Positions 1 to 48,255 of a DNA stretch of 50,015 nt are shown here, piece by piece; position 1 is the first letter of the stretch, and each line of letters starts with the position of its first letter. The position numbers and the translations under genes were made by a program. This DNA comes from a virus. Its lineage: Duplodnaviria > Caudoviricetes. The notes below the pieces were generated by a model. That model made no database searches. It saw only the letters and a program-made list of their open reading frames with translations, and was not told the DNA's origin. The DNA is taken from positions 1 through 50,015 of IMG/VR virus record IMGVR_UViG_3300028595_000002, one strand, 5' to 3'.

Positions 1-52
1 GTGCCACTATCACTCCAGTCTGAACCAAGTTGAGAACCATCTAAATATGCCT
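1..52. repeat. Terminal 52-bp overlap (identical to 49964-50015); circular assembly
   Basis: gtgccactat...aaatatgcct is present at both ends, and the tail-fibre reading frame continues in frame across the join. Confidence 0.95.
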
Positions 53-1739: not shown

Positions 1740-1748
1740 AGTATTAAA

Positions 1749-4700
1749 TTACATTTTATAAACTTTTATATCTTGCGTAGAGCCAGTTTTATTAGTTACT
1801 ACCCAAGTTTGTACTCAATCTTGCCATCATGTGGCAGAGATATCAAATCCGTTTACCGCCCCTGACTCGTATACATTTGTTGAGTAATTCAAAACCCCAT
1901 CATAATTAAAGGAAAGAGCGGATACTTGAGGGCTTGAGCCTTCATTTGTTGTTTTTAATGAAACTGCAATGTCAATATCATCTGCTACACTCCAAGCATC
2001 GTTCCATATTGTGTCACTAATAGCGTTAAATTGTGTTCCTGTTTGTTGGTTAGCTGTTACAGTTACGGCTTCTGAGATTGCTGCGTTTTGTTCATTTATA
2101 TTTGCGACTGTCCAAGTCTCTGCTCCGCTTGCTCCTGTATTGTAGCACCAAACTCATTCTGTCTCTCAAGTTATTGCATTGCTATTTGAGGCGATATTTC
2201 TCCAGGCTGTATCAGAAGTATCGTAAATTTGGAAAGTTACTTTGTCATCAAATGAAACTGAATAAAAAGCACTTTGACCTGCTGTTGCTTCTGTTACTGT
2301 TCCTGAGTTTAAATCATCCCAAGCAGTAGTGTTAAATTGTCCTGTTGTGCTTGTTACTGCTGTGTAAGTTTGATTTTCTGGTGATGAACCTGCTGTGTAA
2401 GACTCGGTAGGCACTGTGATTGTTGCTCCTGTCCAGCCCCTGTCTGTTCCTTTGGAAATTCTAAACTCATCTATATATCCTAAAAAATCAGAAACGTTGA
2501 CAGAAGGAGAAGTCCCAATTTGTAACGGGTCACCTGAAAAGTGAACTGGTGTTGATACACCATAATCAGTTTTGTTATATGTTCTTGTCCCATTGATATA
2601 AAAATTAATACTCCCGCCATCTCTGACTAATACTAAATGATTCCAACTGTTAGCAATAGCTGTTCCTACATCTACTGCTGCTATTACAAAAGTTCCAGAG
2701 GTAGAAGCTATCCATAATTTAATTGTTGTGCCATCGTGCATTAATATGATTCCATCAGAGTCAGTATTATTTCTAAAATTAAAAAGAGAGTGTAAGCCTG
2801 CTGGGAAACTACTGTATACCAAAAAATCAATTACAAAATCATCAGTTCCCCAGTTGTAATCCGCACTATTAGCAACGCTTAAATAATCCCCAGTCCCATC
2901 AAAATACATTGAAGTTGCACCGAAACCGAATTTTTTTTGGTCTGTTGTGTGAATCGCACCGCTTCTTGTAATTGTGTGAATTGTTCCACCAACCGAAGTA
3001 TCTTCAAAATCAGTATCACCATCAAAAGTATCTGACTGAATTAAAAGTTTTGTGTAGCTATCATTTCCTGCTGCACCATCACTTGTCAATTTAATTACAT
3101 CATCAACCATATTTGCCCCTCGTATCCAGTCAACATCATACTCACCTGTTGCTAAGGTTGCAGTAGTTCCGTCGTTGATTGAAAAAGCTACTTCATCAGT
3201 TGCTTCTCCGTCGTCGGTGATTGTGTTGATTGTGTAGGTTTTGTTGGTGTCGCCATTGATTTGGAAGTTTACATTTTCAATTACACGAGGTTCTGTGTTT
3301 CCTGAGCCGAGGGTGACTGGTGCTGTTGAGGTGTATGCTTCTGTTGGCACTGTAATGGTTGCTCCTGTCCAGCCTCTATCTGTATTTTGAGATATTCTAA
3401 ACTCATCAATATAACCATTAAAATATTGAGTATATGTTGAGACAGTATTTTTCCATGCACCAAGTGTTACCCCGTAGTCTGCTAAACCAAAAACAGTGGG
3501 GGGGGTTGAATCAACATCTATATCCCCGTCTATGTATGTTTTAAAAGTTGTGGCAGTTTTTACAATTGCGTAATGATGCCAATTGGTGTCATTTATAGAA
3601 ATGCTTCCACTATAAGAAGACCAAGAACTTGCACCTAAACCATTCCCAAAATAAACATCTATCTCATTTGATGTACTGTCTAAATATGGAGTGAATGTTT
3701 GTCCTGTGCTATATCCAATACTGAACAATTGCTCACCTACTGAGGTTCTCGTCCTTTTAAACCAAAAGTCAATTACCCATTCGCTATTAGCATTTAAATT
3801 AAAATCTGCATTTGGGCTCACTGATAAATAGTCATCTCCGTCAAACTGTATTGAAGTCGCCCCAAAGTTAGCTGTATCATGTGCATTCGTTGTTTCGTGG
3901 TGTGTGTCTGTGCCTCATGCAGAAATCCCACTTGTATGATCAGTTCCTCCAACACTGGTATCAGTAAAAGCGGTTGAACCGTCAGTCGTGTCTGACTGGA
4001 TTAAAAGCACTGTATCGCTATCATTTCCTGTCCCTATTATTGCAAAATGCCCACTTGTATCTGCAGTATCAACTACAAATTTAGTAATAGTTCCTTTCGC
4101 ATCTTCAAAGTCCCATTTAGCTTCATCTGTATCTGATATAATATCATCTGTAGATGATGAAGATTCCAAAACTTTTTTAGTTACACCTACTACAAAATTA
4201 CAAGAAACACTAACAGAATCATCATTAGCAACTGAATTAAAAGTTTCTATCCCTGATAGCCCCCCTCCTGTTGTTGAGGCGGTTATCTCTATCTCATCAC
4301 CCGTGCTAGTAACTGTTGTATTTAGTCATGCCTTGATCTTTTTGAATTCTAAGTCAACACCGTTTTTTTGTTTAAAAATTCCTTCTCCTGCTGTTCCTAT
4401 ATTAGAAACAGTGTTTGCCTCTCCAGAACCACCTCCCCCACCGTTGTCATCTACATACCCTTGAGTGGCTATTTTGTCATTATTAGAAGTTCCTGTCGCT
4501 ACACTTGAAAGTAAATCAGAAGAATTTAGTTTTATTCATGATGTAAAATCTTTTTCCCCTGCGACTGCCTCATTTCATGTTAATGCGACTGCTCCTGCCT
4601 GTGTCGCCGTTACTGAATGGGGGTTGCTAGTACTATCTAAATGCCCCCTTAAATCTGAGGCTGTCACTTCATTCGCATTTCCAGTATCTAACGCCGTATC

Positions 4701-5960
4701 ACTTCCCTGTGTGTGTTTTTTAGATATGGCGTCCGCTAAGTCTGTATCTGCCTTGATGGTTGCTAAATCTAAATGAGTCGTTGTATCTTCTAAATGTGTT
4801 TTTATCTCTAAGGCTGTTTTAGTATTACCCGCTCAATCATCTACGCTTTCTGCTTTATCTACGATGTTATTCGTATTAGTATCGTAAGTAGATTGTAGCA
4901 TATCTCCTGCCCCTCATCCTCAAGCATTGTCATCAACATATTTTTTAGTGGCTGGGTGATTATCTAGGGTTGGGGTGTATACGTCAGTATTATCTAATTC
5001 TAGTACATTTGATTTGTCTGATTTTAGATCCAATGCGTTTTGTAGGTCTGTTTGAGATGATAGCGTTCAAGTTATGCCTCCCCAAGTCCCTCAAGTTGTA
5101 CCTCAATCTTCCCCATCTATTTTTATTCTCTTTACCTTAACTGACCGATCATCACTTAAAGTAGTAGCTAATAATCTAACATTATTTGAATCTATATCTA
5201 CAGAGAACGCCAAATCGCTTGTGTCTCAAATGTCTGTAGTTAATTGTTCGTTGAATTCAACTGTATCTCATGTCCCGTCCCAAGCACTCATTATTGTACC
5301 TGTTCTTAAATTTGCCCCTTTCTTTACAACATAAAGCCAATGACAAGCCTCTACGTCAGTGTCAGCGAAAGTGTCAATTATTTCTGTTCAAGTATCTATA
5401 TCTAAGTTTTTTGCTCCTTCTAATCAAAATCATGTAATACTTACTCCTCCTCCCCCAGAACCTATCTCTGTTTCTGTTCATGTAGAGTCCTTTTGATAAA
5501 GCTTCGTAGTCCCTCAATCATCTTTAGCGTAAATTTTAATATTGTCAGCTTGGGGAGTATCAATTGTAGTTTGTTCGGTTAGTTGTATCTGTCCATCTAT
5601 AATCTTAACTCACTCTATCGCCACCCCTGAATCTGTAGTTAGCTCATTAATCGTATCTGTAGTAATCGTTTCTGTATACAATCTCCAATCAGTAGGATTT
5701 GTACTAGGCTGTGAATTTGTATTGATTGTTAGTGATAAGTAAATTTCTCAATTATAATTTACCATATCTCAAGCAGAGTAGGATTCTAAAGAATCCCAAG
5801 ATCACATTCTAGTTCAACTAACTCAAACTGCTGTTATATTTGCTATTTCATATACTCAACTAGCATTTACCTTTACGTATTTTCAAGCATCAGCCGTGGT
5901 TGGTTTAGGTGTGTCCCCCTCTCTAAGTTTTCATAGTAAAGGATCAAATTTGCTTCACAT
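1749..5960 (-). CDS. Tail fibre/adhesin B (1403 aa): N-terminal CBM5/12-like motif, two LamG/ConA-like domains
   Basis: ATG at 5960, TAA at 1749; joins track ORFs 3915-4169 and 2166-3821 in one frame; motifs WDSLESYSAGDMVNYNG and FNGYIDEFRIS; paralogue of fibre A. Confidence 0.85.
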
Positions 5961-5969
5961 AATTTAAAT

Positions 5970-6215
5970 TTATGAATAAGATAAAATAGCCCTATCATCC
6001 CAAACATTATCCATGACAATATTTCAATCAGCATAATTTCATAAAGTCATATTCCCCGATATATCATAGGTAAATTTCTTAATCCTAAAAAGAGGTTCTG
6101 TCGTTTTTAAAGAATCTCAAGGCAAACACTCTCAAAAATATATAGCGTTATTGCTAGCATCATAATCGTACAATTGACAATATTTACTAGCATCTATCAT
6201 ATTATTTCAAAACAT
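5970..6215 (-). CDS. Small virion-associated protein (81 aa)
   Basis: Open with TGA=Gly; YFGECLPG...FRIKKF...VWDDRAILSY resembles small proteins that precede fibre genes. Confidence 0.65.
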
Positions 6216-10021: not shown

Positions 10022-12430
10022 CTAAAAGTATTTGAAGATAATCTTAGGTCTTTTTAATTCAAATAACATCCTCATAGCCATACAGTCACTAAAATCTGGG
10101 GATCTTCATAATCTCTCCTTAACTAACTCTTTCCCTTCTATAGCAAACTTTCAATCCTTGTCTAGGTCTTTTATTTTAATCTGTAATAGCTCTTGGGTTA
10201 GTTGCTCCTTAACAAATTCATCACAATTCACATGAACTATTCATAGTTTTATTTGCTCACATAACTTAAAATAACATTGAGATTTTAGATTGGCATAATT
10301 AGCCCTTTTTGCTAAGTCTTTAGTTGCTCTCCTCTCTTCTATAGCTCTAGCATTATTGATAAAACCCCTACATCCTCTAATTTGATCTATTACTCAACCT
10401 CATAATCAATCCTCATCAATTACTATATGGTTTCTTGGGATATTATTTCACATAGAAATACGTATTATTTGCTGTGCCAACTCTTGTAAATCTGTTTTCT
10501 TTTGATGAAAAACCTGTAAAACAGTTAATCATCTCCAAAGCATTATTACGGTTTTGTCATTACCCTTTCTGGCAACATCACAAGATAGATAAAACTTCTT
10601 ATCCTCATCTATAGTAGAGTCTTTCTTGAAAATACTTGAAACTGAATCTATATCCAATAACAATCAATCTTCATCTGAATATTCAAAATTACCGTATAAT
10701 AACCTCTGAACTGTTACGTGATCTCATTTCTTTAAATTATCAACGTATTCTTTCTTGATACTAGGATTATCGGTTACTAAAGCAGGTACAAACGCTTTAG
10801 TGGGTTCTAAATTGCCTTCTTTATACGGTTTGTAGTAGTCATAATAAATCCAATTCCTCGCTGGATTACAAGTAAATAACATTTTAGGTATAGTTTCCCA
10901 ACCTTCACCAGATAAAACCGAAAGTCTTCATCTCAAAACACTGATACATTTGCTGTTGATCTCTTGGGCTTCATCTAAGAATACGCCAGTAAGTCAATAA
11001 CTTCATAATCTGTCGAAGTTAGGATCAGATGGTAAATTCTGTAGGTCAGTTAAAAATATTCGTGATCAATTTTGAAATTCTATTACTCAATCCAAAGCGT
11101 TATATTTGTAAAAAGGCTTCTTTAACCCTAACATCTTTATGATATCAAATAAAGTTATCATAGTTGTTAGTTTTAACCTCTTTAGCTCACATCTTCAAAT
11201 TAACCATTGCGAACCGTTGTACTCTAAGCACTTACTAACTACCCAAAAACATCAGATATAGCTATTATGAGTTACCATGAAATCGTTAGTTATATACAAT
11301 CAATCATCTTTAGAAACTGTAATACATTGTGCTTCTTGTTTTCATATATATTTAATGTTTTTTATAACTAAACCCATTCTACTTCTACCACCTTGATATT
11401 TTGTTCATCTATCTTTTTTTCTTGTTAAATTAAACAATAAAGATCTATCAGACAATGTAACAATAACTTCGTAATATACTCACCGTCTTTTCTTTCATTT
11501 ATAAGTACAAAATTTATTAACAGTAATTAAATTAGCCCTACCTCCTATACTTCTTATTAAATATTGAAAATCTAGTGCTAATTGTTTACTTTTTGCAGTT
11601 AAAGAACATCTTCAGTTTGTTCAAACAGTTCAATCTGTATCCATTAACCCTTTTATACATTGACTCCTAGTATATAGGTCTCCTTCCATTATTTGTCTAG
11701 GTATTTTTTTCTTTTCACATCTAACGCCTTTCATTCATAACTCATTCAAAATATCATTCATTTTCGATCATAAATATCACTTAGCTTTTCTATAACTGCT
11801 AAGGATTCTATAAGCATATTTACGTCAATTGTACTTTGATATAGAAATTCATTTTGGTAACAAACGTTTAAAGCTATCTATTAATTCTTGGTCTTCAGTT
11901 GTAAAAATAACTGCTCCAGTAGTAAGTCATCAATCTCATAATAAAGCACCTACTAAATAAGGATGTAATTTTGTATAAGGTTTTCAAAAATCTAATGCCT
12001 CACATGTTGGAATCTTTATTTTTATTCATCTATCAAAAAAATCCTTTATCTCCCTAAGACTTCTATTAGCTAATGTTTTTTGTCATCTTTTAGGTTTCCA
12101 ACTTAACCATAAATGATCCAAACAACACCTAACCTTAATTCAAGTATCAAACTCAACTTCGTAAATATCTTTTTTTCATTGAGGATGTATTGCTATTACT
12201 TTTGTTGTTCATCAACTTGGACTAATTAAAGATTGTCATATCTTAATCTCTCACATCCTGATCCATCAGTCGGGCGTTAGTATTTTACTATATAAAGGTT
12301 GTGCTTTTCAACCTCTAGCCCCACCTCAATACAATACCTCATTCGTTTTATTGTCATTTAGTAATTGCAAAGCTTGGTACTGCTTAGCAAAAGGCTTAAA
12401 TTCAACGATATGGTTTTCTTGTGATTTCAT
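10022..12430 (-). CDS. terL: Terminase large subunit with intein (802 aa precursor)
   Basis: Walker A LYGGGARGGK/S split by the intein, Walker B VFLDEA, motif III TCNP, nuclease SVDVARKGND and SPDFSD. Confidence 0.92.
11264..12304 (-). mobile_element. Class-3-type intein with LAGLIDADG homing endonuclease (347 aa) in the TerL P-loop
   Basis: Begins AQPLYSKILTPDGW, block B CCLDHLW, LAGLIDADG motifs LVGALLGDG and IKGLMDTDG, block F QCITV, ends DFMVTHN followed by Ser. Confidence 0.9.
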
Positions 12431-12440
12431 ATTAATTAAA

Positions 12441-12896
12441 TTATTCTTCTATCTTAGCATCCTCTACATCCTCTTTCTTATCTTGAGTAGGATTAACTAT
12501 CACAATCTTAGTAGGTGATATAGGCTCTCAATCCCTTCAAGTTACCTCTGAGCGTTTGCTAAACTGATCTTTCAATACCCTTTCCAGATACCATTTGGCA
12601 GTTTCTCCATCCGATAAGTTATCGTAAATAGTCTTCAAGGCTTTCAACATCGGCTTAGCCCTTAGTTGCTCCACCCTTACAGGATCTAGGTGTCAACTCC
12701 TTAGCCAATAATAATAAGTAGTCCTATCCACTCCTATATGCTGACAAGCAGTGGTTACGTTTGCTCAAATGGATAATGCTATTTCTAATTCTGCAATCTT
12801 CCTCTCCCTTGCTTTACTATCCATCCTGAATTTCTTTTGCTTCAATTTAGATTCTCCATCTCTTGATAAATTGGTTTCTTGCTTTTTTCTCGACAT
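12441..12896 (-). CDS. terS: Terminase small subunit (151 aa)
   Basis: HTH ACQHIGVDRTTYYYW, AKWYLER, EVTGRDGEPI; immediately upstream of terL. Confidence 0.8.
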
Positions 12897-14076: not shown

Positions 14077-14142
14077 TTTGTTGACTTTATGTATTTTATG
14101 GGATAATTTAGAATAAAAAAAGTTTTTATATATGTTTGAGAC

Positions 14143-14336
14143 ATCCTAAATTGTATCCTAAAGTATCCTAAATTGTATCCTAAAGTATCCTAAATTGTAT
14201 CCTAAAACCTATCCTAAAATATCCTAAAGTATCCTAAATTGTATTCTAAAGTATCCTAAGTTAACCTAAATCCTAACCTAATACATCCTAACTTCTACCC
14301 TAAAGAACCTTAATCAATATCCTAAAGTATCCTAAT
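14143..14336 (+). repeat. Tandem array of ATCCTAAA-core units (alternating 12 and 10 bp)
   Basis: ATCCTAAATTGT/ATCCTAAAGT units, about 11 regular copies followed by degenerate ones. Confidence 0.9.
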
Positions 14337-14497
14337 GTCTATTTTATAATACCTAATAGTTAATATAAGAAGTGTTGAAAGTATATTTATAGTTTATACC
14401 TTATTATGTAAAAAGTATTCTAAATTAATACTATTAAGTACTTAATAGTATTATATATAATATATTATAGTTTCCTCTCCTTCCTTCTTTATGGCTG

Positions 14498-14547
14498 ACA
14501 CGGACGTTTAGTAAGTGCTAATACACGGACGTTTACTAAGTACTAAT
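14498..14547 (+). repeat. 25-bp tandem duplication
   Basis: ACACGGACGTTTAGTAAGTGCTAAT / ACACGGACGTTTACTAAGTACTAAT (2 mismatches). Confidence 0.85.
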
Positions 14548-14672
14548 ACAAGGAAGATTCGCTCTCTGTTCCTAATCTATGACCTTTCGGAGTTTTCCTA
14601 AACCTCAAAACTTCCTTTGTTTATGCTATACTTAAGTAAAACTAAAAAAACTAAAAAAAGTATAATAAAAAC

Positions 14673-14701
14673 TTGTATTTACTAAAAAGATATATTATAA
14701 T
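14673..14701 (+). promoter_or_regulatory. Early sigma70-like promoter P1
   Basis: TTGTAT-17 bp-TATAAT with upstream A-tracts; near-identical to P2. Confidence 0.75.
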
Positions 14702-15120: not shown

Positions 15121-15206
15121 GGCTTCTTTTTTTTTGTCTTAAATAAGCTATCTTTTAAGTAAAACTAAATAAAACTAAAAAAAACTAAAAAAACTATAAA
15201 AAAAAC

Positions 15207-15235
15207 TTGCATTTACTAAAAAGATAGATTATAAT
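15207..15235 (+). promoter_or_regulatory. Early sigma70-like promoter P2
   Basis: TTGCAT-17 bp-TATAAT; spacer ttactaaaaagatagat is almost identical to that of P1. Confidence 0.75.
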
Positions 15236-15925: not shown

Positions 15926-16582
15926 ATGAAAAATTTTAATGATATGACAGAAGACGAACAAATAAAGGAAGTTAAAAAGAATTGGTGCATCATGGAATTT
16001 ATAGCGAACCCAAGCAAAAAGGTAATTTTAGAGGCTGTAAAAAGGCACTGATACTCCATACAATGGATTCATAATCCTAGTGAAGAAGTGAAATTAGAAG
16101 CTGTAAAAAAAAATTGAGAAGCCATACAATGGATTCATAATCCTAGTGAAGAAGTGAAATTAATGGCTGTTAAAAAAAATTGATATTCCATACAATGGAT
16201 ACATAATCCTAGTGAAGAAGTGAAATTAGAAGCTGTTAAACAAATTTGATATTCCATACAATGGATTCATAATCCTAGTGAAGAAGTGAAATTAGAAGCT
16301 GTAAAACAAAATTGATGGGCTATACAACAGATACATAATCCTAGTGAAGAGTTAATGTTGGAAGCTGTAAAACAAACTTGATATTCCATACAATGGATTC
16401 ATAATCCTAGTGAAGAAGTGAAATTAATGGCTGTTAAACAAAATTGAGAAGCTATACAATATATACATAATCCTAGTGAAGAGTTAATGTTAGAGGCTGT
16501 TAAACAAAATTGAGAAGCTATACAACGGATTCATAACCCAACACAAAAAGTAAAAGATATGGCAAATTGAAAAAGTACTTAA
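15926..16582 (+). CDS. DUF4116-like 22-aa tandem repeat protein (218 aa)
   Basis: 66-bp repeats encoding AVKQNGxxIQWIHNPSEEVKLE; the conserved Gly is TGA. Confidence 0.8.
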
Positions 16583-18981: not shown

Positions 18982-20175
18982 ATGAAATCTGATAACAAAA
19001 TAAAAGGTTACTGTGTAATACCAGTTGTAATACTAAATGATGAAAACCTAAAAGCAAAAGAACGCCTTCTTTATGGCAATATTTATAGTCTATGCCGTTC
19101 TTGTTGATATTGTCGGGCAACTAATAAATATTTAGCAGATCTAATAAATGACTATTCTTGATGAAAAAAAACACACAAAGATACAGTTTCTAAATATATA
19201 GCTAGTTTACAGAAAGCTTGATATATCAAGTGTGAGTATGTATACGAATGAAAGAAGATTAAAGGTAGAAAGATCTATTTAATGGGTGTAACAGACCTTG
19301 CAACATGAATATATTATGAACTATCAGAGGAAGAAGTAATGACCAGACTAACTACTAGGTCTACAGAGCTAGGGGGGTATAGCTCTACAGATCATGAGGG
19401 TATAGCTCTACAGATCAAAGGTAACAAGATAAACAATAACAAAATAAATAATAAAAAAGAAAAAGAGGTCTCTCTTTCAAAAGAAGAAGAAAAAACACTT
19501 GCTAATATTAATTCTAACCCTAGCAAAAACTCTAAAGAATCTAAGGAATCCCCCATCTCTCTGGATGTAGCAAACGTAGAAGAAGCTCAACAGTCTGTAC
19601 AGACTACAAGTAACCCCTTACGTGTGAACAAAGAAAAGAAAAATTGCGTTAAAAGAAAAGAAATAAAGTCATTGCTACCAGTAGGCACTACAGCAGAAAA
19701 CATAAGCGATGAACAATTTCAAGAGCTTTGTAGAAAATTTAGGACTCTATCAGAATGAGATAGAAAAATTTTGCAAGAAAAACTAAAAAGTGTTAGCATT
19801 AAATTAATAGAATACTGGAACGATAAATCAGATGAGTTTATACCTTGAACCAAAATAAAATATTGAATATGAAAAGTAAGATTATCCGCACCTTGAACAC
19901 AAAAAAAAGTATATGATGGATTATATACCTTGTTAATAAAAGAGAAATTTACGCTTAAAGACCTTAAACATTGTTTAGTTGTTTATTTGTCTGAATTAGA
20001 GAAATCCCCAGATAGGTTTCGTATTTGATGACTTGTAGCATTTATAACACAAAAAAACTGAATGAAATTAAAAGTCACAGAAAGCATAACAGATAAACCA
20101 AAGCAAAAATACTCACAATTCAAACAAGACACAAAAAACGACCCATATTGACGTGCAATCAGAATAAAAGGATAA
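18982..20175 (+). CDS. Replication initiator (HTH_36 / lambda-O-like, 397 aa)
   Basis: VIPVVILNDENLKAKERLLYG..GYC(CGG)ATNKYLA; internal iterons. Confidence 0.8.
19375..19417 (+). repeat. Iteron-like direct repeats inside the initiator (putative origin)
   Basis: GGGTATAGCTCTACAGATCA twice, 23-bp period, followed by an A-rich tract. Confidence 0.6.
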
Positions 20176-23908: not shown

Positions 23909-24460
23909 ATGGAAAAAACTAAATTTATAAATTTCTCATGAAAAACAGGTAAGTTTGACTTTTATAACTTCGATGAGAAAACAAACGAAGAATTTAACTT
24001 CGATAAAATACATATAACTTGACTAGGTTTTCAAATAAAGGGATTTACTAAACCCTTTGGCGGTACTAGTCCTAGTCGTTTCTGATGGAGTAATATCGTT
24101 AGTAGTTTCGCAGAAAAGTTTATAGTAAAAGATAAAGAATGAATAGAGTTGATGGTTTGTGAATGATCAGAAGCGAGTGAAAGAATAAAAGGTACAGGAT
24201 TCGAAATATTTCTTTGTATAGATGCTTTAGTAGATTGAGTTGAATGTTCTTTTAGGATCAAGGGAACAGGTGCTAGACAATTCTACAAAGACTTTAAATT
24301 AAACGACTGAATAGAAGAAGCAATTTGATATGAATGTGAAGTTAAAATTGAGGAGGTGAACTGACAATACCATTATTTTGTACCTAAGTTTATAAAGCTA
24401 GAAAAGAAGCCTATACCAGAAAAAGAACCAGAATTAGATATGGCGGATGTGCCTTTTTAA
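23909..24460 (+). CDS. SSB-like protein (183 aa)
   Basis: Acidic C-terminal tail ELDMADVPF; located in the replication module. Confidence 0.55.
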
Positions 24461-24475
24461 AAAATAAAAACTATT

Positions 24476-27400
24476 ATGGAAAATAAAATAAAATCTAAAA
24501 AACAGATACAAAACGAAAGAGACCTCTTAACAATTGGGGAGGTTTCGGAAACTACATGAGCTACCACTAAACAAATTATAAAGTGGTGTAGAGAAGGTAA
24601 AATTACTAAAAAGTTCGTTAGTCAGAAGGTTATGTTGTTACCCTCGGCGATACAAGAAGTTTGTCAACTAATAACAGAGGATTTAAATTGAATAGATAAT
24701 GAGACCAATTTTTCCTCCTATATGACATACGAAGAAACACAAAAGTTTCTAGATATATCTATTGATGAAGTTTTACTTCTAATAAATCATAAGTTTTTAA
24801 AATATCATGAAACATGATTAATATGAAAAGAGAGTGTATTAAGATTATCAGGCAAAATATATCGTAGAAGCCAATATTATGATTATTTTAATATCTCCGA
24901 AGCATCCAGACATCTTACATTAACAAAGCCAGAAATTAATGTATTATTAAAAGATAATATTATAAACAAAACAATTAAATGATATTTCTTACGAAAACAG
25001 GACGTAGTATATGAGGTATTAATATATCCAGAGGATATTGTGAAGCTAGAAACAGCAATTAAATATATAAAAAAAATTAAAGATTTTGATAAATTAACAC
25101 CTAAAGAACGATTAGATAGTATTAAAAGCTTTTACAAACAATCTTATAATAAATGAAAAGAATTACTAGAAGATTGAGAGGAGACAATAACCCAAGCGGA
25201 GGCAGCGGAACTTTGTCGAGTTTCAACGACTTTAATTTCGAGAGCGATTAAAGATAAAAAAATAAAAACAAAAAAGGTAGGTAAATGTGTAAAACCCTTA
25301 AGGAGTTCTGTTTTAGAATTTAAAAAAACTTTAAAATTTAAAAAAGATTACCCTGGTTATTTAACTCTAACAGAGGCTAGTAAAGAATTAGGTTTTAGTG
25401 ACAATTCTATAAATAGTCGAATAAAATCATGAGAAATAAAAGGAGCTATAAAAAATGCAATTCGTGATACTTGAGGTTCTTGTACCCTAATCCCCCTATC
25501 AGAAGTAGATAAACTTAAAAAGACCTTAAAATTTCAAAAAGATTACCCTGATTATTTAACTATAACAGAGGCTAGTAAAGAATTAGGTTGTAGTGACAGG
25601 GCTATAAAAACTAGAATAAAATCATGAGAAATAAAAGGAGCTATAAAAAATGTAATTTTTGATACTTGGGGTTCTTGTACCCTAATCCCAAAATCAGAAG
25701 TAGATAAGCTAAAAAAAACCTTAAAATTTCAAAAGGACTATACTAATTATTTAACTTTAAAAGAAGTTAGCAAAGAATTAGGTTGTAGTGGGTGAACTAT
25801 AAATAGGCGAATAAAATCATGAGAAATAAAAGGAGCTATAAAAAATGTAATTCGTGATACTTGAGGTTCTTGTGTTCTAATCCCCCTATCAGAAGTAGAT
25901 AAACTTAAAAAGACCTTAAAATTTCAAAAAGATTACCCTGATTATTTAACTCAAATAGAGGTTGGTGAAGAATTAGGTTGTAGTGGCTGGACTATTGGTA
26001 ATAGAATAAAATCATGAGAAATAAAAGGAGCTATAAAAAATGTAATTTTTGATACTTGAGGTTCTTGTACCCTAATCCCCAAATCAGAAGTAGAGAACCT
26101 TAAAAAACAATGGCAAAAAAATAAAACAGACCACACAAGAGACAATCAAGATAGTATTAAAAGCTTTTACAACCAATCTTATAATAAATGAAAGGGATTA
26201 CTAGAAGACACGGAAGTTACTTTGACACTGCAAGAAGCCGGGGATCTTTGTTGAGTTTCATGTACCTATATGTTTGAAGTAATTAAAAATAAAAAAATCA
26301 AAACAAAAAAGGTAGGTAGTTGTAGAAGACCCTTAAAAAGTTCTGTTTTAGAATTTAAAAAAACTTTAAAATTTCAAAAGGACTATACTAATTATTTAAC
26401 TTTAAAAGAAGTTAGTAAAGAATTAGGTTGTAGTATAGATGCTATTTCTGAGAGAATAAAATCATGAGAAATAAAAGGAGTTATAAAAAATGTCATTTCT
26501 AATAATTGAAAGTCTTGCACACTAATTCCCAAATCAGAAGTAGAAAAACTTAGAAAGACCGTAAAAACTCAAAAGGACTATACTAATTATTTAATTACAA
26601 AAGAAGTTAGTAAAGAAATAGGTTGTGGTACAACGTATATTTATAGTAGAATAAAATCATGAGAAATAAAAGGAGTTATACAAAATGTCATTTCTAATAA
26701 TTGAAAGTCTTGCACACTAATTCCCAAATCAGAAGTAGAAAAACTTAGAAAGACCGTAAAAATTCAAAAGGACTATACTAATTATTTAACTTTAAAAGAA
26801 GTTAGTAAAGAAATAGGTTGTGGTATAACGTATATTTATAGTAGAATAAAATCATGAGAAATAAAAGGAGTTATACAAAATGTCATTTCTAATTCTTGAG
26901 GTTCTTGTACCCTAATCCCCCCATTAGAAATAGAGAAGTTAAAAAAACAATGGCAAAAAAGCAAACAAAAACCTATAGAAGACAATCAAAACACTGTCAA
27001 ACCATTATTAATTGACAATGAGGAACCTAAAAAAGAAGAAGAAGAAATCAGAATACCGAAAGAAGCAACAGAAAACCAAAATAAAATACCAATTAACCAA
27101 GTAGATATGGATAAAGAAAGTAAAGAAGAACTAGAAAGTAATATAAAGTTTTTCTTCAAAGAGATCGAAGAGAAGTACCAAAATAACATATTTATACCTA
27201 ATAGTTTAGAATGAATATTTAATTTACGGAACAGTAGGCTTAAAGGTATGGGAGAGATAGACAATATAATAGACTTAGCAAATGAAAAACAAATAGAAGA
27301 AACTAGACAAGTTATTAGACCTTTTACAGACAAAGCTTTGTCTACTTGAATCACTAAATACCTTAAATGGATTAAAAATATAAAGAAGAAAGGTAGGAGT

Positions 27401-28072
27401 TTTTACATAAAGAGTCTTGTCGACTTTGTGACTTCTAGGAATGGACTGATAAAGTTTTTAAGGGGATCTGAAGGGATAGATAAGATATTTACTCCAGATT
27501 TCCAAGATAGAGAACCTTTGTATACATCAGAGCCTCAGATAGCAGGTAAGAAGATAGAGCAAATGCTTTGTGATGTCTTAGAGGGTAAACTAGATGTCGA
27601 CAACCCAAAAGACGAGTACGAGACATTAATAAAACAGGTTGTCAATAATAAACAGTTCGACAAATTGTTGACAAGAGGACTGTTTTGGAAAAGATATAAA
27701 AACATAGACAGACAAAAAGAGTATATCAATAAAGCAGGTAAGAAGTATGCGATTACTGATATAGAGCTAAAGGATACTGTAATAGATGTAAAAGCCACTA
27801 GGTCGTACACTATAGAAGAAGTAAAAGCTAAGTATTACGATCAGATGTTGAAATACTTTAATTGCTCTTGAGGTAAGAAGGTAGTGATCGTTTATATTAA
27901 TATGAGACATCCTTATTGAGTTGATATAATCGAATATGACTTTTGAATTAAGGAGCGTTTACAATATTTTTGGAACTACATTAAGTTTATTTTTTTAAGT
28001 TATTTTATTAAGAAGAACTGTAATAAGAATTGTAGGAATTGTAAAAATTACCATTGGTGTAACTCGAAATAG
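24476..28072 (+). CDS. Tandem-HTH array protein fused to a C-terminal PD-(D/E)XK (Cas4/RecB-like) nuclease (1198 aa)
   Basis: Single frame with TGA=Gly joining track ORFs 26270 and 27428; seven 65-aa repeats plus about five divergent HTHs; TDIELKDTVIDVK, YYDQMLKY, C-terminal CNKNCRNCKNYHWC. Confidence 0.85.
25322..26941 (+). repeat. Coding 195-bp tandem repeats (4 + 3 copies) within a ~1035-bp higher-order duplication
   Basis: tcatgagaaataaaagga at 25427, 25622, 25817, 26012, 26462, 26657, 26852; leader gatagtattaaaagcttttac at 25115 and 26150. Confidence 0.95.
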
Positions 28073-30638: not shown

Positions 30639-31448
30639 ATGAACACAAATACAAATAAATACCCTATAGAACATTTAAGCCCTAGTTCTTTTAGATTGTT
30701 TTTAAATAATAGATTCGAGTTCTATAAAGCTTATATAAAAGGCGTGAAAAACTTTAAAACCTCTGAAGCTATGTTTACTTGAACTGTTTATCATAGTATA
30801 TTAGAGATGTTTTATAACCAAGAAAAAAGGGATAGTGCTTTTTTTGATATGGAAGAAGAACAAATTTTGTCTATAGCAAACGCAATAGAAGAAGAAAGAG
30901 AAAACAATATAGATAAAAAAGATGAAAAACGGATAGATAGGGTTGTTGCTAGTGTAAAAAAACTATTAACTTTTTATCAATCAGAGCTTCCAGACTATAA
31001 AGAGATATTAGGTATAGAATTGCTATTAAAAAATACCCCCAAGGGTATAACTATACCTTTTAAGGGTTTCGTGGATCTAGTAGTTAAGGAATGAGATGAA
31101 ATAATTTTAGTAGATCATAAAACAGTATCTAGATTTTCAAATAAAATCTCACCTTGATATATGATACAGGCTAATATGTACTATTTACTATACGTAACAG
31201 AATACAAACAAGCACCTAAATATATGTATTTCGATGAAATAAAGAAGTCTAAAAACAGAGACGGATCTCCTCAATTGAGAACTGTAAAATATAAATATAA
31301 TCAAAAAGATATGGTCTGATTTGCTAGGTTATTAGTATGAACCCTAAGGCAATTAGAGGTCTTTGGAGATAATCAAGATTTTTATTTACCTAACCCTTTT
31401 GATATGTTAAATGGAGAGCAATCGTTTCTTGAATATATAGAAATATAA
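30639..31448 (+). CDS. PD-(D/E)XK RecB-like exonuclease (269 aa)
   Basis: HLSPSS, GTVYHSILE, KGFVDLV, LVDHKT, IQANMY. Confidence 0.85.
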
Positions 31449-33502: not shown

Positions 33503-35008
33503 TTAAGCTGATATATCTGAATATTTTAAATTAATTTTTTCTCAATCTGTTCAAGAAGCTCCATTGGTAGATACTGGAGTTCCACCTCATCATCAAGTTC
33601 ATCAACTTCCTCAAGTACTAGTTAAAGTTCAAGAAAAATTATTAGTATAACCAACTAATATAATTGCTCCTCAACTTCCACCTCATCATCAACCACCTCA
33701 TCATCAAGAAGCCCCTCAATTAGCACCAGTTCATCAATCACCACCATCTCATCAGTCTTCTCAAACGGTAGTTAAGTTTCCAGTTCAAGCGAAAGTATTT
33801 GCTAATATAACAATCCCAGCTCATGCTCTTCAAGGTACTCATCATCAACCACCTCATCATCAAGCTACTCAAGTATCGACATAGGATCAATTAGTTCAAT
33901 TAGCACCCAAAAGTCATCAAGATCCTCAATTAGCCGAGTCTCATGTAGCGGTTCTAGTAGCACCACCACCTCAACCTCATCAGAATATTCATGGCATTCA
34001 ACACCTAAATAATCAAGAAGCACCGTTGGTTATATCTTGAACAGTACCTCAATCCCCACCTTGAGAAATATTGATAGTTCAAGCGTTTCATCATCTTCAT
34101 CAATCCGCTATTCAAGTACCTGCTCCACTACCTCATCATCAATATCAATAGGTGCTACCAGTTCATCAAGTGGAATTTCATCATCAATTACCTCAAGTTC
34201 CTACATTATTACAACTAGCTTCTATTCAGAGTAGATTAGAAGTGATGTAGCTTTTATCTAAATAAGCACCTGTTAAATCTATATCTCAATCAATAGTACA
34301 AGTTCAAGAACATTTTAATCTTAAAACTCCAGTAGTGTCAGTAGTAGATAAAACCGCACCTGCAGATATATTAATAGATGAATAATTATAATCAGTATCC
34401 AAACTTAGATTAGTCGTTCAAGAAGTTATATTTAAGACTCCATCACTACCATCTCAAAATAATGCAGGGGTAGAAGAAACAGATGTTAATCAACTTCAAT
34501 CTCAAGTAAAAGAATTTCCTATAAAGTCAGTTTGTCAAGCTGTTCAAATTGTATGAGAAGAGGTTGAATCAGTCGCTATATCTATATCTCATTTAATTTT
34601 TACAAATTCCCTTTCATCTGTAATAGATCAAGAACTAATACTAGCAAGTGGTATATAGTTACTGCTAGGGTAACTTGTATCTGTTTGTATAGTCCCTATT
34701 CAAGTTCAATCTGCATTATTTCAAGATCCATCATTTATATTAGCTTGAGTAACTTTTATAAACACTTTCTTAGTTCAAGAGGTATCGATAGTGACAGATG
34801 AAGTATTTTCATAGGTTACTAAAAAACTTTCTTCTGGACTAGTATTAGTTCTAGTGACTTCTATTATAGCTTTTCAAGCTGATACAGAGTTTGTCGTAAC
34901 TTCTAATCAAGTTATTACTCATTCTTTTATTACGGAACTTCAGGGAAAACTAAAATGTTTATCTTGATTAATATTCGTTCCGTTTAGTAGTCATATTATT
35001 TCTGTCAT
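33503..35008 (-). CDS. Glycine-rich tail/fibre protein (501 aa)
   Basis: Runs such as TGA TGA TGA GGT GGT TGA TGA TGA GGT give poly-Gly; LFGDGSDG motif. Confidence 0.8.
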
Positions 35009-47670: not shown

Positions 47671-48117
47671 TTAAGTCTTTTGTCTGTAAAATATATTCCT
47701 ATAAGGTTCTAAGTATATTTTAGCTTTATCTGGTATCGTTTTTAAGACGTTCCTAGTTCATGAGGTATATTTTATCCTTCTATCACCAGCGACCTCTTCA
47801 GTGACCTCTCAGTAGGTACTAGATACAGTATCTCAAGATTCAAATATTTGCTCGCACACATAGACGGTAGCAATTTTTATATCATTTGGGATAACCTCAA
47901 TATTTCAATCCTCATCTTGAGTGGGGAAGATAAAACTCTGGGATTCACTATATTTAGTTCAGTAATGTAGTATATAGTCATCTATCGCAAATTGTGCCTC
48001 ATAAATTAGTCTTTTTATTTGGTTATCCGTAAGGGAAGCTATTCAAGTTTTATTAGTGGAGTCCTTGAGATCCTGTATAGTTATATATATAGGATCTTCT
48101 ATGAATAGATTATTCAT
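47671..48117 (-). CDS. Head-tail connector protein (148 aa)
   Basis: YITIQDLK, AIDDY, IPNDIKIAT, LLEPYR. Confidence 0.7.
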
Positions 48118-48255
48118 TTTTCAAATTTTTTAATATAGCCTTAAGTTCTGTTATTTTATTTTCTATTCTAATGCTTATAGAATTAGGTTCTTTAAGTAAC
48201 CCTTGTAAGGTAGCGATCTTATGTTCTATCTTATCTATAGTGTTATTATACATAA

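What the first reader, a model, noticed from the sequence alone, without database searches (positions are those of the whole stretch)
24476..28072. Giant modular DNA-binding nuclease: ~12 tandem HTH units fused to a Cas4/RecB-like nuclease
Seen: with TGA=Gly one 1198-aa frame carries three divergent N-terminal HTHs, a leader HTH plus four 65-aa repeats, a second leader HTH plus three repeats, an acidic linker, and a PD-(D/E)XK domain (GKKIEQ, TDIELKDTVIDVK, QMLKY) ending in a four-Cys cluster. It is invisible in the code-11 ORF track. Established: each unit resembles an excisionase/MerR-type HTH (YLTxxEVSKELG...IKSGEIKG), and the nuclease motifs are RecB/Cas4-like. Inference: a natural TALEN/ZFN-like architecture in which an array of DNA-reading modules directs a nuclease, possibly for host or competitor DNA cleavage, homing, or replication/packaging. 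I do not know a described family with this layout.
Basis: partly seen in the sequence, partly recalled or inferred. Interest (0 to 1): 0.9.

Follow-up and report, generated by a model that had tools for sequence, protein, structure and literature searches.

The report
Twelve-HTH array fused to probable nuclease
A phage that reads TGA as glycine encodes one giant protein made of twelve excisionase-type DNA-binding modules joined to what is probably a RecB/RecE-like nuclease, a layout found nowhere else in the searches made here.

Summary
With TGA=Gly, 24476-28072 is one open 1198-codon frame. The window is a complete 50-kb tailed phage, and its Walker A GKT glycine is a TGA codon.

The protein has 12 excisionase/MerR-type winged-HTH units. 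Pfam HTH_17 scores 1.1e-50, and a repeat HMM finds 12 domains: 7 strong and 5 weak. A three-unit AlphaFold model (pLDDT 83) resembles TraN, BldC and Xis. Variation among the seven 65-aa repeats concentrates in the recognition helix and wing tip.

The nuclease is only probable. Cas4, PDDEXK_1 and DUF3799 Pfam models do not match, and the fold prediction failed. A RecE-like PHROG matches residues 1099-1167 at E about 1e-3. hhalign to a RecE family aligns the D-x-K motif and beats 100 of 100 shuffles.

No homologue of the C-terminal region exists among 1.84 billion representatives, apart from the same phage with one repeat fewer.

A new lead is an array of 12 regularly spaced TATCCTAAA direct repeats, plus degenerate copies, at 14142-14336. 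It is a candidate target. I rate this a new variant of known kinds, with no experimental support.

The parts
24476..28072 (+). Whole ORF: 1198 codons plus stop, with 28 TGA=Gly codons
24521..24655 (+). N1, a divergent wHTH unit (residues about 16-60)
   Evidence: HTH_17 1.5e-6 on the N-terminal 215 aa, best stretch 17-60; repeat HMM iE 0.0066
24710..24850 (+). N2, the weakest putative HTH unit (residues about 79-125)
   Evidence: repeat HMM iE 0.41 only; a second HTH_17 stretch is reported in the N-terminal piece but its position was not given
24872..25045 (+). N3, a divergent HTH unit (residues about 133-190)
   Evidence: repeat HMM iE 0.0048
25160..25336 (+). L1, leader wHTH with a short wing; it opens block 1
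   Evidence: aligns to the repeat units with a 7-residue wing deletion; HTH_3 best stretch 232-280; repeat HMM iE 0.041
25337..26116 (+). A1-A4, four 65-aa (195-nt) tandem wHTH repeats
   Evidence: TRF period 195, 4.0 copies, 86% matches; repeat HMM iE about 1e-41 to 1e-44; AlphaFold pLDDT 83.2 for A1-A3
26192..26371 (+). L2, second leader wHTH; with its preamble it is 52/73 identical to the L1 block
   Evidence: repeat HMM iE 0.003
26372..26956 (+). B1-B3, three 65-aa tandem wHTH repeats; one unit (residues 720-784) is absent from a second assembly
   Evidence: TRF 2.7 copies, 93% matches
26957..27145 (+). Charged, net acidic linker (17 D+E, 11 K+R in 63 residues)
27146..27535 (+). C-terminal region of unknown fold (residues 891-1020)
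   Evidence: no family, PDB or database match
27536..27985 (+). Putative PD-(D/E)XK core: E1028, D1095, D1104-V-K1106, Q1123-x3-Y1127, PY..YD hairpin at 1145-1155
   Evidence: phrog_434 hit on residues 1099-1167; hhalign to a RecE family; motif positions
28019..28060 (+). Cys cluster C1182-x3-C1186-x2-C1189-x5-C1195, a putative metal (Fe-S or Zn) site
   Evidence: 4 of the 6 Cys in residues 880-1198 fall within 14 residues
14142..14336 (+). Candidate DNA target (inferred, not shown): array of TATCCTAAA direct repeats. Twelve consecutive copies lie 10 or 12 bp apart (14142-14270), followed by degenerate copies

Best explanation
A replication-module gene of a code-25 (TGA=Gly) tailed phage encodes a single polypeptide. 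In it, twelve Xis/BldC-type winged-HTH modules are strung head to tail and tethered by a charged linker to a divergent RecB/RecE-like PD-(D/E)XK nuclease that ends in a four-Cys metal site.

Shown: the frame, the code, the 12 units, their wHTH fold, and the concentration of repeat variation in the recognition helix and wing.

Inferred:
1. The array lies along more than 100 bp of DNA, one module per helical turn. This would be a covalent version of the cooperative filaments that free Xis, BldC and RdfS form on direct repeats.
2. The array positions the nuclease to nick or cut next to that site.
3. The most likely site within the phage genome is the 12-copy array of 10/12-bp-spaced TATCCTAAA repeats at 14142-14270 (degenerate copies continue to 14336), in the gap between the late and early gene blocks. 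A nick or cut there could serve replication initiation or genome processing.

My odds are about 0.95 for the HTH array, 0.6 for an active nuclease, and 0.3 for the phage's own iteron array as the target. The overall confidence of 0.5 is for the core claim, an HTH-array-directed nuclease, whatever its site.
For: Frame and code.

Independent assembly. A second assembly (ENA contig of 33.7 kb) gives the same protein with 0 mismatches except for the loss of exactly one repeat unit. The array, linker and C-terminal domain are therefore one frame in two assemblies.

HTH identity. HTH_17 scores 1.1e-50 with 8 stretches, TIGR01764 3.2e-39, phrog_66 8.8e-46 and PADLOC mad1 3.7e-48. The repeat HMM finds 12 domains.

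Fold. The AlphaFold model of A1-A3 has pLDDT 83.2, and each unit reads beta-alpha-alpha-beta-beta-alpha. Foldseek against PDB ranks TraN first (probability 0.99; I recall it as a two-HTH protein). It then gives BldC (6amk_B, TMt 0.77), Pukovnik Xis (TMt 0.75) and RdfS.

Variation. 29 of 65 repeat columns are invariant. The 15 columns of helix alpha2 plus the wing loop hold 26 of the 59 extra residue types (p 0.0018 for random columns; 63 of 2652 block placements reach this value). dN/dS is 1.25 in the recognition-helix columns and 1.88 in the wing columns, against 0.47 elsewhere.

Nuclease. phrog_434 (RecE-like exonuclease) matches residues 1099-1167 at E 7.5e-4 to 1.1e-3. It is the only place in the genome that this profile matches (E 1.3e-4). 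hhalign to a 28-sequence RecE-family alignment pairs VIDVKAT with IDDYKTS and HPYGVDIIEYD with PPYVVTPIQYD. The score is 27.8, against a mean of 13.5, sd 2.3 and maximum 21.9 in shuffles; 0 of 100 shuffles reach it. That family's profile hits RecE 3H4R at 9e-25. Four-Cys metal sites attached to RecB-type nuclease domains are described for Cas4, AddB and DUF3799 (PMC3466216, passages read).

Target. 9 of the 10 exact TATCCTAAA copies in the genome lie in 14154-14326, as do 15 of the 54 copies with at most one mismatch. All are on the + strand. Twelve consecutive copies are spaced 10 or 12 bp apart. TRF reports period 10 with 11.8 copies. BldC binds direct repeats head to tail, with one DNA turn between protomers on its long site (PMC5859096; PMC11963761).

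Context. The gene follows a replication initiator, a DnaB-like helicase and a RusA-like resolvase.
Against: Nuclease.
- No curated nuclease model reaches significance. PF01930, PF12705 and PF12684 give nothing on this region at E<=10.
- Pfam, NCBIfam and PADLOC scans of the C-terminal piece show nothing relevant.
- PDB phmmer finds nothing.
- hhalign probability is only 11.7%, the alignment covers 57 columns, and it does not pair QMLKY with the family's Q..Y.
- The shuffle control is lenient.
- The fold could not be predicted (pLDDT 34.5).
- Motif I has E where RecB-type proteins usually have H (recalled).
- The Cys pattern is four C-terminal Cys rather than one N-terminal plus three C-terminal.

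Target.
- A 22-bp repeat array beside a replication module is the classical site of the replication initiator, encoded here at 18982-20175.
- The iterons are nearly identical, whereas the recognition helices of the 12 units differ. Five units are very divergent.
- The match of 12 units to 12 copies is post hoc.
- GC skew cannot place an origin here, because it follows gene orientation.

Other.
- No homologues exist, so no covariation test is possible.
- The repeat number differs between the two assemblies, and no reads could be examined.
Confidence: 0.5

Rival explanations
1. The protein is architectural or regulatory and does not cut DNA. It would be a covalent Xis/BldC-like filament that coats a direct-repeat region (operators, origin or a centromere-like site) to switch transcription, organise the origin or compact DNA. 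The C-terminal region would be a degenerate ex-nuclease or a metal-binding interaction domain.
For: All the strong evidence concerns the HTH array only. The known relatives Xis, BldC, RdfS and TraN are non-catalytic DNA binders. Curated nuclease models fail on the C-terminal region. The iteron array sits between divergent gene blocks, where operators usually lie.
Against: D1095, D1104-x-K1106 and Q1123-x3-Y1127 are all present with canonical hydrophobic context. Two different RecE-like profiles pick out the same 70 residues.
Confidence: 0.25
2. The protein is a directed nuclease whose target lies outside the phage. The target could be host DNA, a rival phage or satellite (as with ICP1 Odn, which cuts a satellite origin at its iterons), or an empty allele, as for a free-standing homing endonuclease. 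The varied recognition helices would then read a long, non-repetitive or foreign site.
For: Recognition-helix and wing residues differ between units and show dN/dS above 1. That fits an arms race or a composite site better than near-identical iterons do. Odn is a precedent: its N-terminal part resembles the satellite's RepA DNA-binding domain, it cleaves the satellite origin, and it needs the iterons to do so (PMC8263062, passages read). HTH units of this kind also match PHROG families labelled HNH endonuclease (phrog_8446 at 4e-15). The gene is a singleton with no homologues, as mobile or fast-evolving genes often are. The nearest major-capsid-protein relative found (48% identity, standard code) shows no match to the protein in its genome with this query.
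Against: No host or rival genome was available to search for a site. Twelve modules far exceed what specificity requires. The only large short-period repeat array seen lies in the phage itself.
Confidence: 0.2
3. The architecture is an assembly artefact. Repeat number or order would be wrong, or two genes would have been fused by mis-assembly across 195-nt repeats.
For: Two assemblies differ by exactly one repeat unit. The repeats are 75-91% identical at the nucleotide level. No reads could be laid, because no run was listed.
Against: Both assemblies share every junction: N-terminal units to block 1, block 1 to block 2, and block 2 to linker to C-terminal domain. There are 0 mismatches outside the indel. 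The indel is in register, as expected of unequal crossing-over or repeat collapse, and it does not affect the fusion.
Confidence: 0.05

Closest known systems
Xis / BldC / RdfS-type winged-HTH proteins (Pfam HTH_17, TIGR01764 excisionase family)
   Same: Same domain family and fold. These proteins assemble head to tail on direct repeats about one helical turn apart (PMC5859096; PMC11963761). That spacing matches the 10/12-bp array in this phage.
   Different: They are free 50-70-aa monomers that oligomerise non-covalently and have no enzyme domain. Here 12 units are covalently joined and carry a C-terminal catalytic-looking domain.
TraN of Enterococcus plasmid pIP501 (PDB 4pm3/4p0z) and phage proteins with 2-3 tandem HTH units in BFVD
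   Same: Tandem excisionase-like HTH domains in one chain. TraN is the top Foldseek PDB hit (E 2.2e-3, probability 0.99). BFVD hits of 117-188 aa align over 124-190 columns, which is two to three units.
   Different: Two or three units, not twelve, and no nuclease. That TraN has two HTH motifs is recalled, not taken from a call.
RecE / Cas4 / AddB-type PD-(D/E)XK nucleases with a four-Cys metal site
   Same: Order and spacing of D, D-x-K and Q-x3-Y, a PY..YD hairpin, and a Cys cluster at the C-terminus (PMC3466216). There is a weak profile match to phrog_434.
   Different: The region fails the Pfam models of these families. All four clustered Cys are C-terminal. The fold is unverified.
ICP1 Odn (Gp88), the origin-directed nuclease
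   Same: A phage-encoded chimera of a site-reading DNA-binding domain and a nuclease that needs iterons to cleave (PMC8263062).
   Different: Odn has one RepA_N-like domain. I recall its nuclease type as different from PD-(D/E)XK; no call checked this. Its target is a satellite's origin. No sequence relation was tested or expected.
Modular 'beads-on-a-string' homing endonucleases (I-TevI type) and engineered TALEN/ZFN
   Same: A nuclease tethered by a linker to serial small DNA-binding modules. In TALEs, near-identical repeats differ at a few DNA-reading positions (recalled).
   Different: A different binding fold (wHTH of about 65 aa stepping roughly 10-11 bp, not a 34-aa TALE repeat per base pair or a zinc finger per 3 bp). 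A different nuclease. No recognition code is shown.

Membership tests
HTH_17 / excisionase family (PF12728, TIGR01764) | Profile score above the curated cut-off | tested here: met
   PF12728 scores 170.2 bits against a cut-off of 27, with 8 stretches. TIGR01764 scores 133 bits against 28.8, with 6 stretches.
HTH_17 / excisionase family (PF12728, TIGR01764) | Winged-helix fold beta1-alpha1-alpha2-beta2-beta3-alpha3, similar to Xis/BldC | tested here: met
   AlphaFold pLDDT 83.2 with this element order in each of 3 units. Foldseek gives BldC TMt 0.77, Pukovnik Xis TMt 0.75 and probability 0.99, although 0 matches reach E<=0.001 for the 3-unit query.
HTH_17 / excisionase family (PF12728, TIGR01764) | All 12 units are members | tested here: inconclusive
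   7 repeats and N1 are clear. N2, N3, L1 and L2 rest on weak repeat-HMM hits (iE 0.003-0.41), on the alignment and on secondary Pfam hits.
Cas4 (PF01930) | Profile match | tested here: not met
   0 matches in the whole genome at E<=10; the control rang in 9 of 14 genomes.
Cas4 (PF01930) | Four conserved Cys, one N-terminal and three C-terminal, binding Fe-S | tested here: inconclusive
   The pattern is C1182-x3-C1186-x2-C1189-x5-C1195, with C1032 upstream. The arrangement differs from the one described in PMC3466216. The metal is unknown.
PDDEXK_1 (PF12705) | Profile match | tested here: not met
   The only match in the genome is a different gene at 30672-31355. A Pfam scan of the C-terminal piece at E<=10 shows only PA14, below its cut-off.
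RecE-like exonucleases (phrog_434; DUF3799 PF12684; RecE family of Che9c gp60) | Profile match | tested here: inconclusive
   phrog_434 E 7.5e-4 to 1.1e-3, about 19-20 bits; genome-wide E 1.3e-4. PF12684 gives no match. hhalign probability 11.7%, with 0 of 100 shuffles reaching the score.
PD-(D/E)XK superfamily | Catalytic D ... (D/E)-x-K on adjacent strands | tested here: inconclusive
   D1095 and D1104-V-K1106 are present in a strand-turn-strand-like context, and D-x-K aligns with the family's D-x-K. The fold is not verified.
PD-(D/E)XK superfamily | Metal-dependent nuclease activity | not testable with these tools
   Needs biochemistry.
TALE/zinc-finger-like programmable arrays | One module reads one defined DNA sub-site through a few variable residues | not testable with these tools
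   The only evidence is that variation concentrates in the recognition helix and wing.
Homing endonuclease genes | Presence/absence polymorphism at a conserved site, or residence in an intron or intein | not tested
   No related phage genomes with the locus were found.

The most novel reading that the evidence does not exclude
This would be a natural, covalently concatenated winged-HTH reader. Each 65-aa module would occupy one helical turn, and its few hypervariable residues at the start of the recognition helix and at the wing tip would set local specificity. The array would then spell out a target of about 130 bp and deliver a PD-(D/E)XK nuclease to it. That would be a third kind of modular DNA-targeting nuclease scaffold beside zinc-finger and TALE arrays, evolving by unit gain and loss, as the 6- and 7-repeat alleles suggest.
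Probability: 0.15. Interest if true: 0.9.

Novelty: new variant of a known kind. Interest (0 to 1): 0.65.

Why it matters
If the C-terminal domain cuts DNA, this is a natural nuclease aimed by a very long serial array of winged-HTH modules. That architecture was not recovered anywhere else in 1.84 billion protein representatives or in 50,697 phage genomes.

It would show that the cooperative head-to-tail DNA coating known from Xis, BldC and RdfS can be fixed into a single polypeptide.

It also offers a concrete protein-site pair to test: 12 modules against 12 iterons spaced one helical turn apart. The repeat variation sits exactly on the DNA-contacting elements, which makes the protein a candidate system for studying how wHTH specificity is encoded.

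Finally, it illustrates that code-25 phage genes are mistranslated in public databases. The database copies of this protein carry Trp at all 28 Gly(TGA) positions in the full-length form.

Tried and rejected
TGA=Trp (code 4). Two repeats have TGG where the others have TGA, and the database copies are translated that way. I rejected this reading because of the Walker A GKT, the poly-Gly runs and the conserved glycines.

Fold of the C-terminal domain. A single-sequence AlphaFold run failed with pLDDT 34.5, so no Foldseek search was made on it.

Homologues of the C-terminal domain.
- phmmer against 1.84 billion representatives found only the same phage.
- PDB phmmer gave nothing meaningful.
- tblastn against phages gave no match.
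- IMG/VR pattern scans gave no relative.

Homologues of the array.
- The long-protein search found only P0002 and a weak 979-aa protein, P0003. P0003 has several HTH_17-like units and a C-terminal part that matched no family in the Pfam or PHROG scans. I did not study it further.
- The single-unit search found nothing.
- tblastn of the repeats against phages gave no match.
- Nucleotide pattern scans of viral contigs gave 0 hits.
- A degenerate pattern scan of metagenome contigs gave 11 single hits. None of the 11 encodes a relative by phmmer at E<=0.01.

Related phages. The helicase query found none. The major-capsid-protein query found one standard-code contig in a MAG labelled Bacteroidota. 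That genome showed no match to the protein and no iteron pattern with these queries.

Other negatives.
- BLASTP of the C-terminal region against the phage's own PDDEXK_1 protein gave nothing.
- Rfam gave 0 matches in the window.
- The promoter and terminator scan around the gene was not enriched over shuffles.
- Sequencing runs: none was listed, and no RNA holder was listed.
- Complex prediction was not used, because no protein-protein claim is made.
- Supplementary files of the papers were not consulted.

Not in print, as far as these searches go. Searches with 'tandem helix-turn-helix / nuclease / phage / repeats' and 'phage / genetic code 25 / Gracilibacteria' listed nothing describing such a protein. 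I read only listings and the passages named above.


Full report
What the window is. The 50,015-base window is the whole record, a single contig that IMG/VR classes as a virus with direct terminal repeats and 100% completeness. Its two ends share 52 identical bases. It encodes a major head protein, a portal, a small terminase and a large terminase that carries a LAGLIDADG domain, most likely an intein. It also encodes a tape-measure protein, tail-fibre-like proteins, an amidase, a replication initiator, a DnaB-like helicase, a RusA-like resolvase, a dCTP deaminase and a separate PDDEXK_1 nuclease. It is a tailed phage.

The genetic code. TGA is read as glycine. The glycine of the Walker A GKT in the helicase is a TGA codon, as are conserved glycines of the dCTP deaminase and the amidase. 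One 501-aa protein has 82 TGA codons that produce long poly-Gly runs. TGA accounts for 4.4% of codons in 17 long ORFs, about as many as all GGN codons together. ARAGORN finds no tRNA gene in the phage. I infer that it depends on a code-25 host, Gracilibacteria or Absconditabacteria. Phages with this code have been described (PMC10746230, passages read).

Checking the observation. Under table 25, 24476-28072 is one frame of 1198 residues with 28 TGA codons. Under table 11 the frame falls into pieces of at most 173 codons. The chance of an open frame of this length at this base composition is about 1e-31.

A second, independent assembly also holds the protein. It is an ENA contig of 33.7 kb, and its copy was translated with TGA=Trp. 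That copy is identical to the window's apart from the in-register loss of residues 720-784, which is exactly one repeat unit. The fusion of array, linker and C-terminal domain is therefore reproduced. Only the repeat number (6 or 7 canonical units) is unsettled. No sequencing run was listed, so reads could not be examined.

The HTH array. Pfam HTH_17 scores 170 bits (E 1.1e-50, 8 stretches). TIGR01764 'excisionase family' scores 3.2e-39, phrog_66 8.8e-46 and PADLOC mad1 3.7e-48. An HMM built from the seven 65-aa repeats finds 12 domains in the protein:
- Seven are strong: A1-A4 at residues 288-547 and B1-B3 at 633-827.
- Five are weak: N1 at 16-43, N2 at 79-98, N3 at 133-168, L1 at 238-264 and L2 at 583-631.

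N1 also reaches HTH_17 on its own. L1 and L2 align to the repeat with a shortened wing. N2 is the least certain unit.

There is a higher-order duplication. A preamble plus leader plus repeats occurs twice, and the two preamble-leader blocks are 52/73 identical.

An AlphaFold model of A1-A3, made with a five-row alignment of the protein's own repeat segments, has mean pLDDT 83.2. Each unit reads beta1 (columns 8-10), alpha1 (11-18), alpha2 (22-31), beta2 (38-42), beta3 (48-53) and alpha3 (54-62). This is the excisionase/MerR winged helix. pTM is 0.53, so the relative placement of the units is not reliable.

Foldseek against PDB ranks TraN of pIP501 first. It then gives single-domain matches to BldC (TMt 0.71-0.77), Pukovnik Xis (0.75), RacA, GlnR and RdfS. 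Probabilities reach 0.99, but no E-value is below 0.001 for this three-domain query. In BFVD the best hits are phage proteins of 117-188 aa that align over two to three units. Short tandem arrays of this domain therefore exist in phages. A twelve-unit array was not found.

Where the repeats differ. 29 of 65 columns are invariant among the seven repeats. Columns 29-36 (IKSGEIKG) are identical even at the nucleotide level. The most variable columns are 22-24 and 26-27, at the start of the recognition helix, with 4-6 different residues each. The wing tip (columns 43-47) also varies.

I took the DNA-contacting elements from the model, not from the variation: alpha2 plus the wing loop, 15 columns. 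These hold 26 of the 59 extra residue types. The p-value is 0.0018 against random columns, and 63 of 2652 placements of two blocks reach this value. Pooled dN/dS is 1.25 in the recognition-helix columns and 1.88 in the wing columns, against 0.47 elsewhere. The column ranges for that calculation were chosen after seeing the variation, and seven related copies are few. This is suggestive, not proof of diversifying selection.

The C-terminal region.

Evidence against a nuclease:
- Residues 880-1198 match no Pfam, NCBIfam or PADLOC family.
- No PDB sequence matches and no phage record matches.
- Among 1.84 billion representatives there is only the same phage.
- Cas4 (PF01930), PDDEXK_1 (PF12705) and DUF3799 (PF12684) give no match there even at E<=10 in a 50-kb search space. 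PF12705 does find the phage's other nuclease gene at 30672-31355.
- The single-sequence fold failed.

Evidence for a nuclease:
- phrog_434, labelled RecE-like recombination exonuclease, matches residues 1099-1167 at E 7.5e-4 to 1.1e-3 against the whole PHROG library. This is the only place in the genome that the profile matches (E 1.3e-4).
- I built a second, different RecE-type profile from 28 of the 120 listed homologues of Che9c gene 60. That gene falls in phrog_412, not phrog_434. Its profile hits RecE 3H4R at 9e-25.
- hhalign of this profile against residues 969-1198 gives only 11.7% probability. It does pair VIDVKAT with the family's invariant IDDYKTS, and HPYGVDIIEYD with PPYVVTPIQYD. 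The score of 27.8 exceeds all 100 composition-preserving shuffles (mean 13.5, sd 2.3, maximum 21.9).
- The sequence shows D1095, a short turn, D1104-V-K1106, then Q1123-x3-Y1127. This is the RecB-family order as I recall it.
- Four of the six Cys in this region form C-x3-C-x2-C-x5-C at the extreme C-terminus. Four-Cys metal sites attached to RecB-type domains are described for Cas4, AddB and DUF3799 (PMC3466216), although with one Cys N-terminal of the domain.

I put a PD-(D/E)XK nuclease at about 0.6. I do not file the protein as a member of Cas4 or PDDEXK_1.

A candidate DNA site. A 1.8-kb non-coding gap lies between the small terminase gene (12441-12896, minus strand) and the first rightward genes. 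It contains an array of TATCCTAAA direct repeats. Twelve consecutive copies with at most one mismatch start at 14142, 14154, 14164, 14176, 14186, 14198, 14210, 14220, 14230, 14242, 14252 and 14262, so each step is 10 or 12 bp. More degenerate copies continue to 14336.
- Nine of the ten exact copies in the genome lie here.
- Eighteen CCTAA cores lie in 14145-14352, all on the + strand and none on the other.
- TRF reports period 10 with 11.8 copies and period 22 with 5.3 copies.
- It is the longest short-period (under 30 nt) tandem array that TRF reports in the genome.

Proteins of this fold bind exactly this kind of site. BldC binds direct repeats head to tail, forming an extended filament with one DNA turn between protomers. 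Xis and RdfS form comparable filaments (PMC5859096; PMC11963761). Twelve modules at about 10.9 bp would cover about 130 bp, and the twelve regular copies span 129 bp. I treat this numerical fit as post hoc.

Against this pairing, a 22-bp repeat array next to a replication module is the textbook site of the initiator protein, encoded here at 18982-20175. The iterons are nearly identical, while the recognition helices of the twelve units are not. GC skew follows gene orientation and cannot locate an origin here. I give the pairing about 0.3.

Mechanism proposed. The array binds along one face of a long DNA segment, as a covalent Xis/BldC-like filament. The charged linker of about 60 residues lets the C-terminal nuclease reach flanking DNA. 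The position of the gene, after the initiator, helicase, resolvase and a 183-aa protein of unknown family, suggests a role in replication or recombination, such as a nick or break at or near the iteron region. Alternatively it may attack a foreign replicon, as the phage ICP1 nuclease Odn does at a satellite's iterons (PMC8263062). Binding, cutting and the site itself are all inferred.

Comparison and novelty. The parts are known: the HTH_17 winged helix and, probably, a PD-(D/E)XK nuclease. Tethering a nuclease to serial small DNA-binding modules is also a known principle, as in modular homing endonucleases and Odn. Tandem pairs or triplets of this HTH exist. What is new is the scale and the combination: twelve units in two recently expanded blocks, variation confined to the DNA-reading elements, and fusion to a nuclease-like domain that has no detectable homologue. 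The protein is a singleton, present in two assemblies of one phage. No evolutionary test is therefore possible, and everything beyond domain identity awaits experiment. I rate it a new variant of known kinds, with interest 0.65.

Noticed in passing
window 14142-14336 (+): An array of TATCCTAAA direct repeats. Twelve regular copies are spaced 10 or 12 bp apart, followed by degenerate ones. All are on one strand, in the 1.8-kb non-coding gap between the late and early gene blocks. It could be an origin, an operator region or a packaging site.
   Followed up: partly
window 10022-12430 (-): The large terminase (802 aa) is interrupted just after its GGARGGK Walker A stretch by about 350 aa that carry a LAGLIDADG_3 domain (1.2e-9) and end in THN|S. 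This is probably an intein with a homing endonuclease. The splice motifs were read by eye.
   Followed up: partly
window 15926-16582 (+): A 218-aa protein made of about eight 22-aa (66-nt) DUF4116 repeats (Pfam 1e-36; TRF period 66, 7.7 copies). It is a second repeat protein in the early region.
   Followed up: partly
window 33503-35008 (-): A 501-aa glycine-rich protein with 82 TGA codons. Its long poly-Gly runs are encoded largely by TGA. It has no Pfam family.
   Followed up: no
window 1-52 and 49964-50015: The two ends share 52 identical bases, and ORFs run off both ends of the window. The 'direct terminal repeat' may therefore be the overlap of a circular or permuted assembly rather than true genome ends.
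   Followed up: partly
window 23909-24460 (+): The 183-aa protein just upstream of the finding has no family hit. It ends in ...DMADVPF, which resembles the acidic C-terminal tail of bacterial SSB (recalled, not tested).
   Followed up: no
window 30639-31448 (+): A separate, clear PDDEXK_1 (Cas4-like) nuclease without any Cys (Pfam 2.9e-16). The phage therefore has a conventional recombination-type exonuclease besides the gene studied here.
   Followed up: yes
window 25532-25726 and 25922-26116 (repeats A2 and A4): At two variable positions one repeat has TGG (Trp) where its sisters have TGA (Gly). In code 25, Gly and Trp are one transition apart.
   Followed up: no
window 1-6000 and 48000-50015: The tail-fibre-like genes have a GC content of 0.37-0.39 against about 0.29 elsewhere. 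They share long near-identical segments between 1749-5960 and 48256-49932.
   Followed up: no
window 14498-14554; 14620-14701 and 15154-15235: A 25-nt direct repeat occurs 2.3 times. An 82-nt repeat (83% identical) lies ahead of two early ORFs, with AAAACTAAA runs and promoter-like hexamers. These may be duplicated early promoters.
   Followed up: no
L015 5001-6173 (genome handle G001): The nearest major-capsid-protein relative found (48% identity over the full length) lies on a 41.6-kb contig of a MAG labelled Bacteroidota. It is open under the standard code, so a standard-code relative of this code-25 phage's head gene exists.
   Followed up: partly
P0003 (979 aa, database protein): This is the only other long protein recovered with several HTH_17-like units (E 3.8e-4 to the array). 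Its roughly 550-aa C-terminal part matches no family and contains a Cys-rich stretch.
   Followed up: partly
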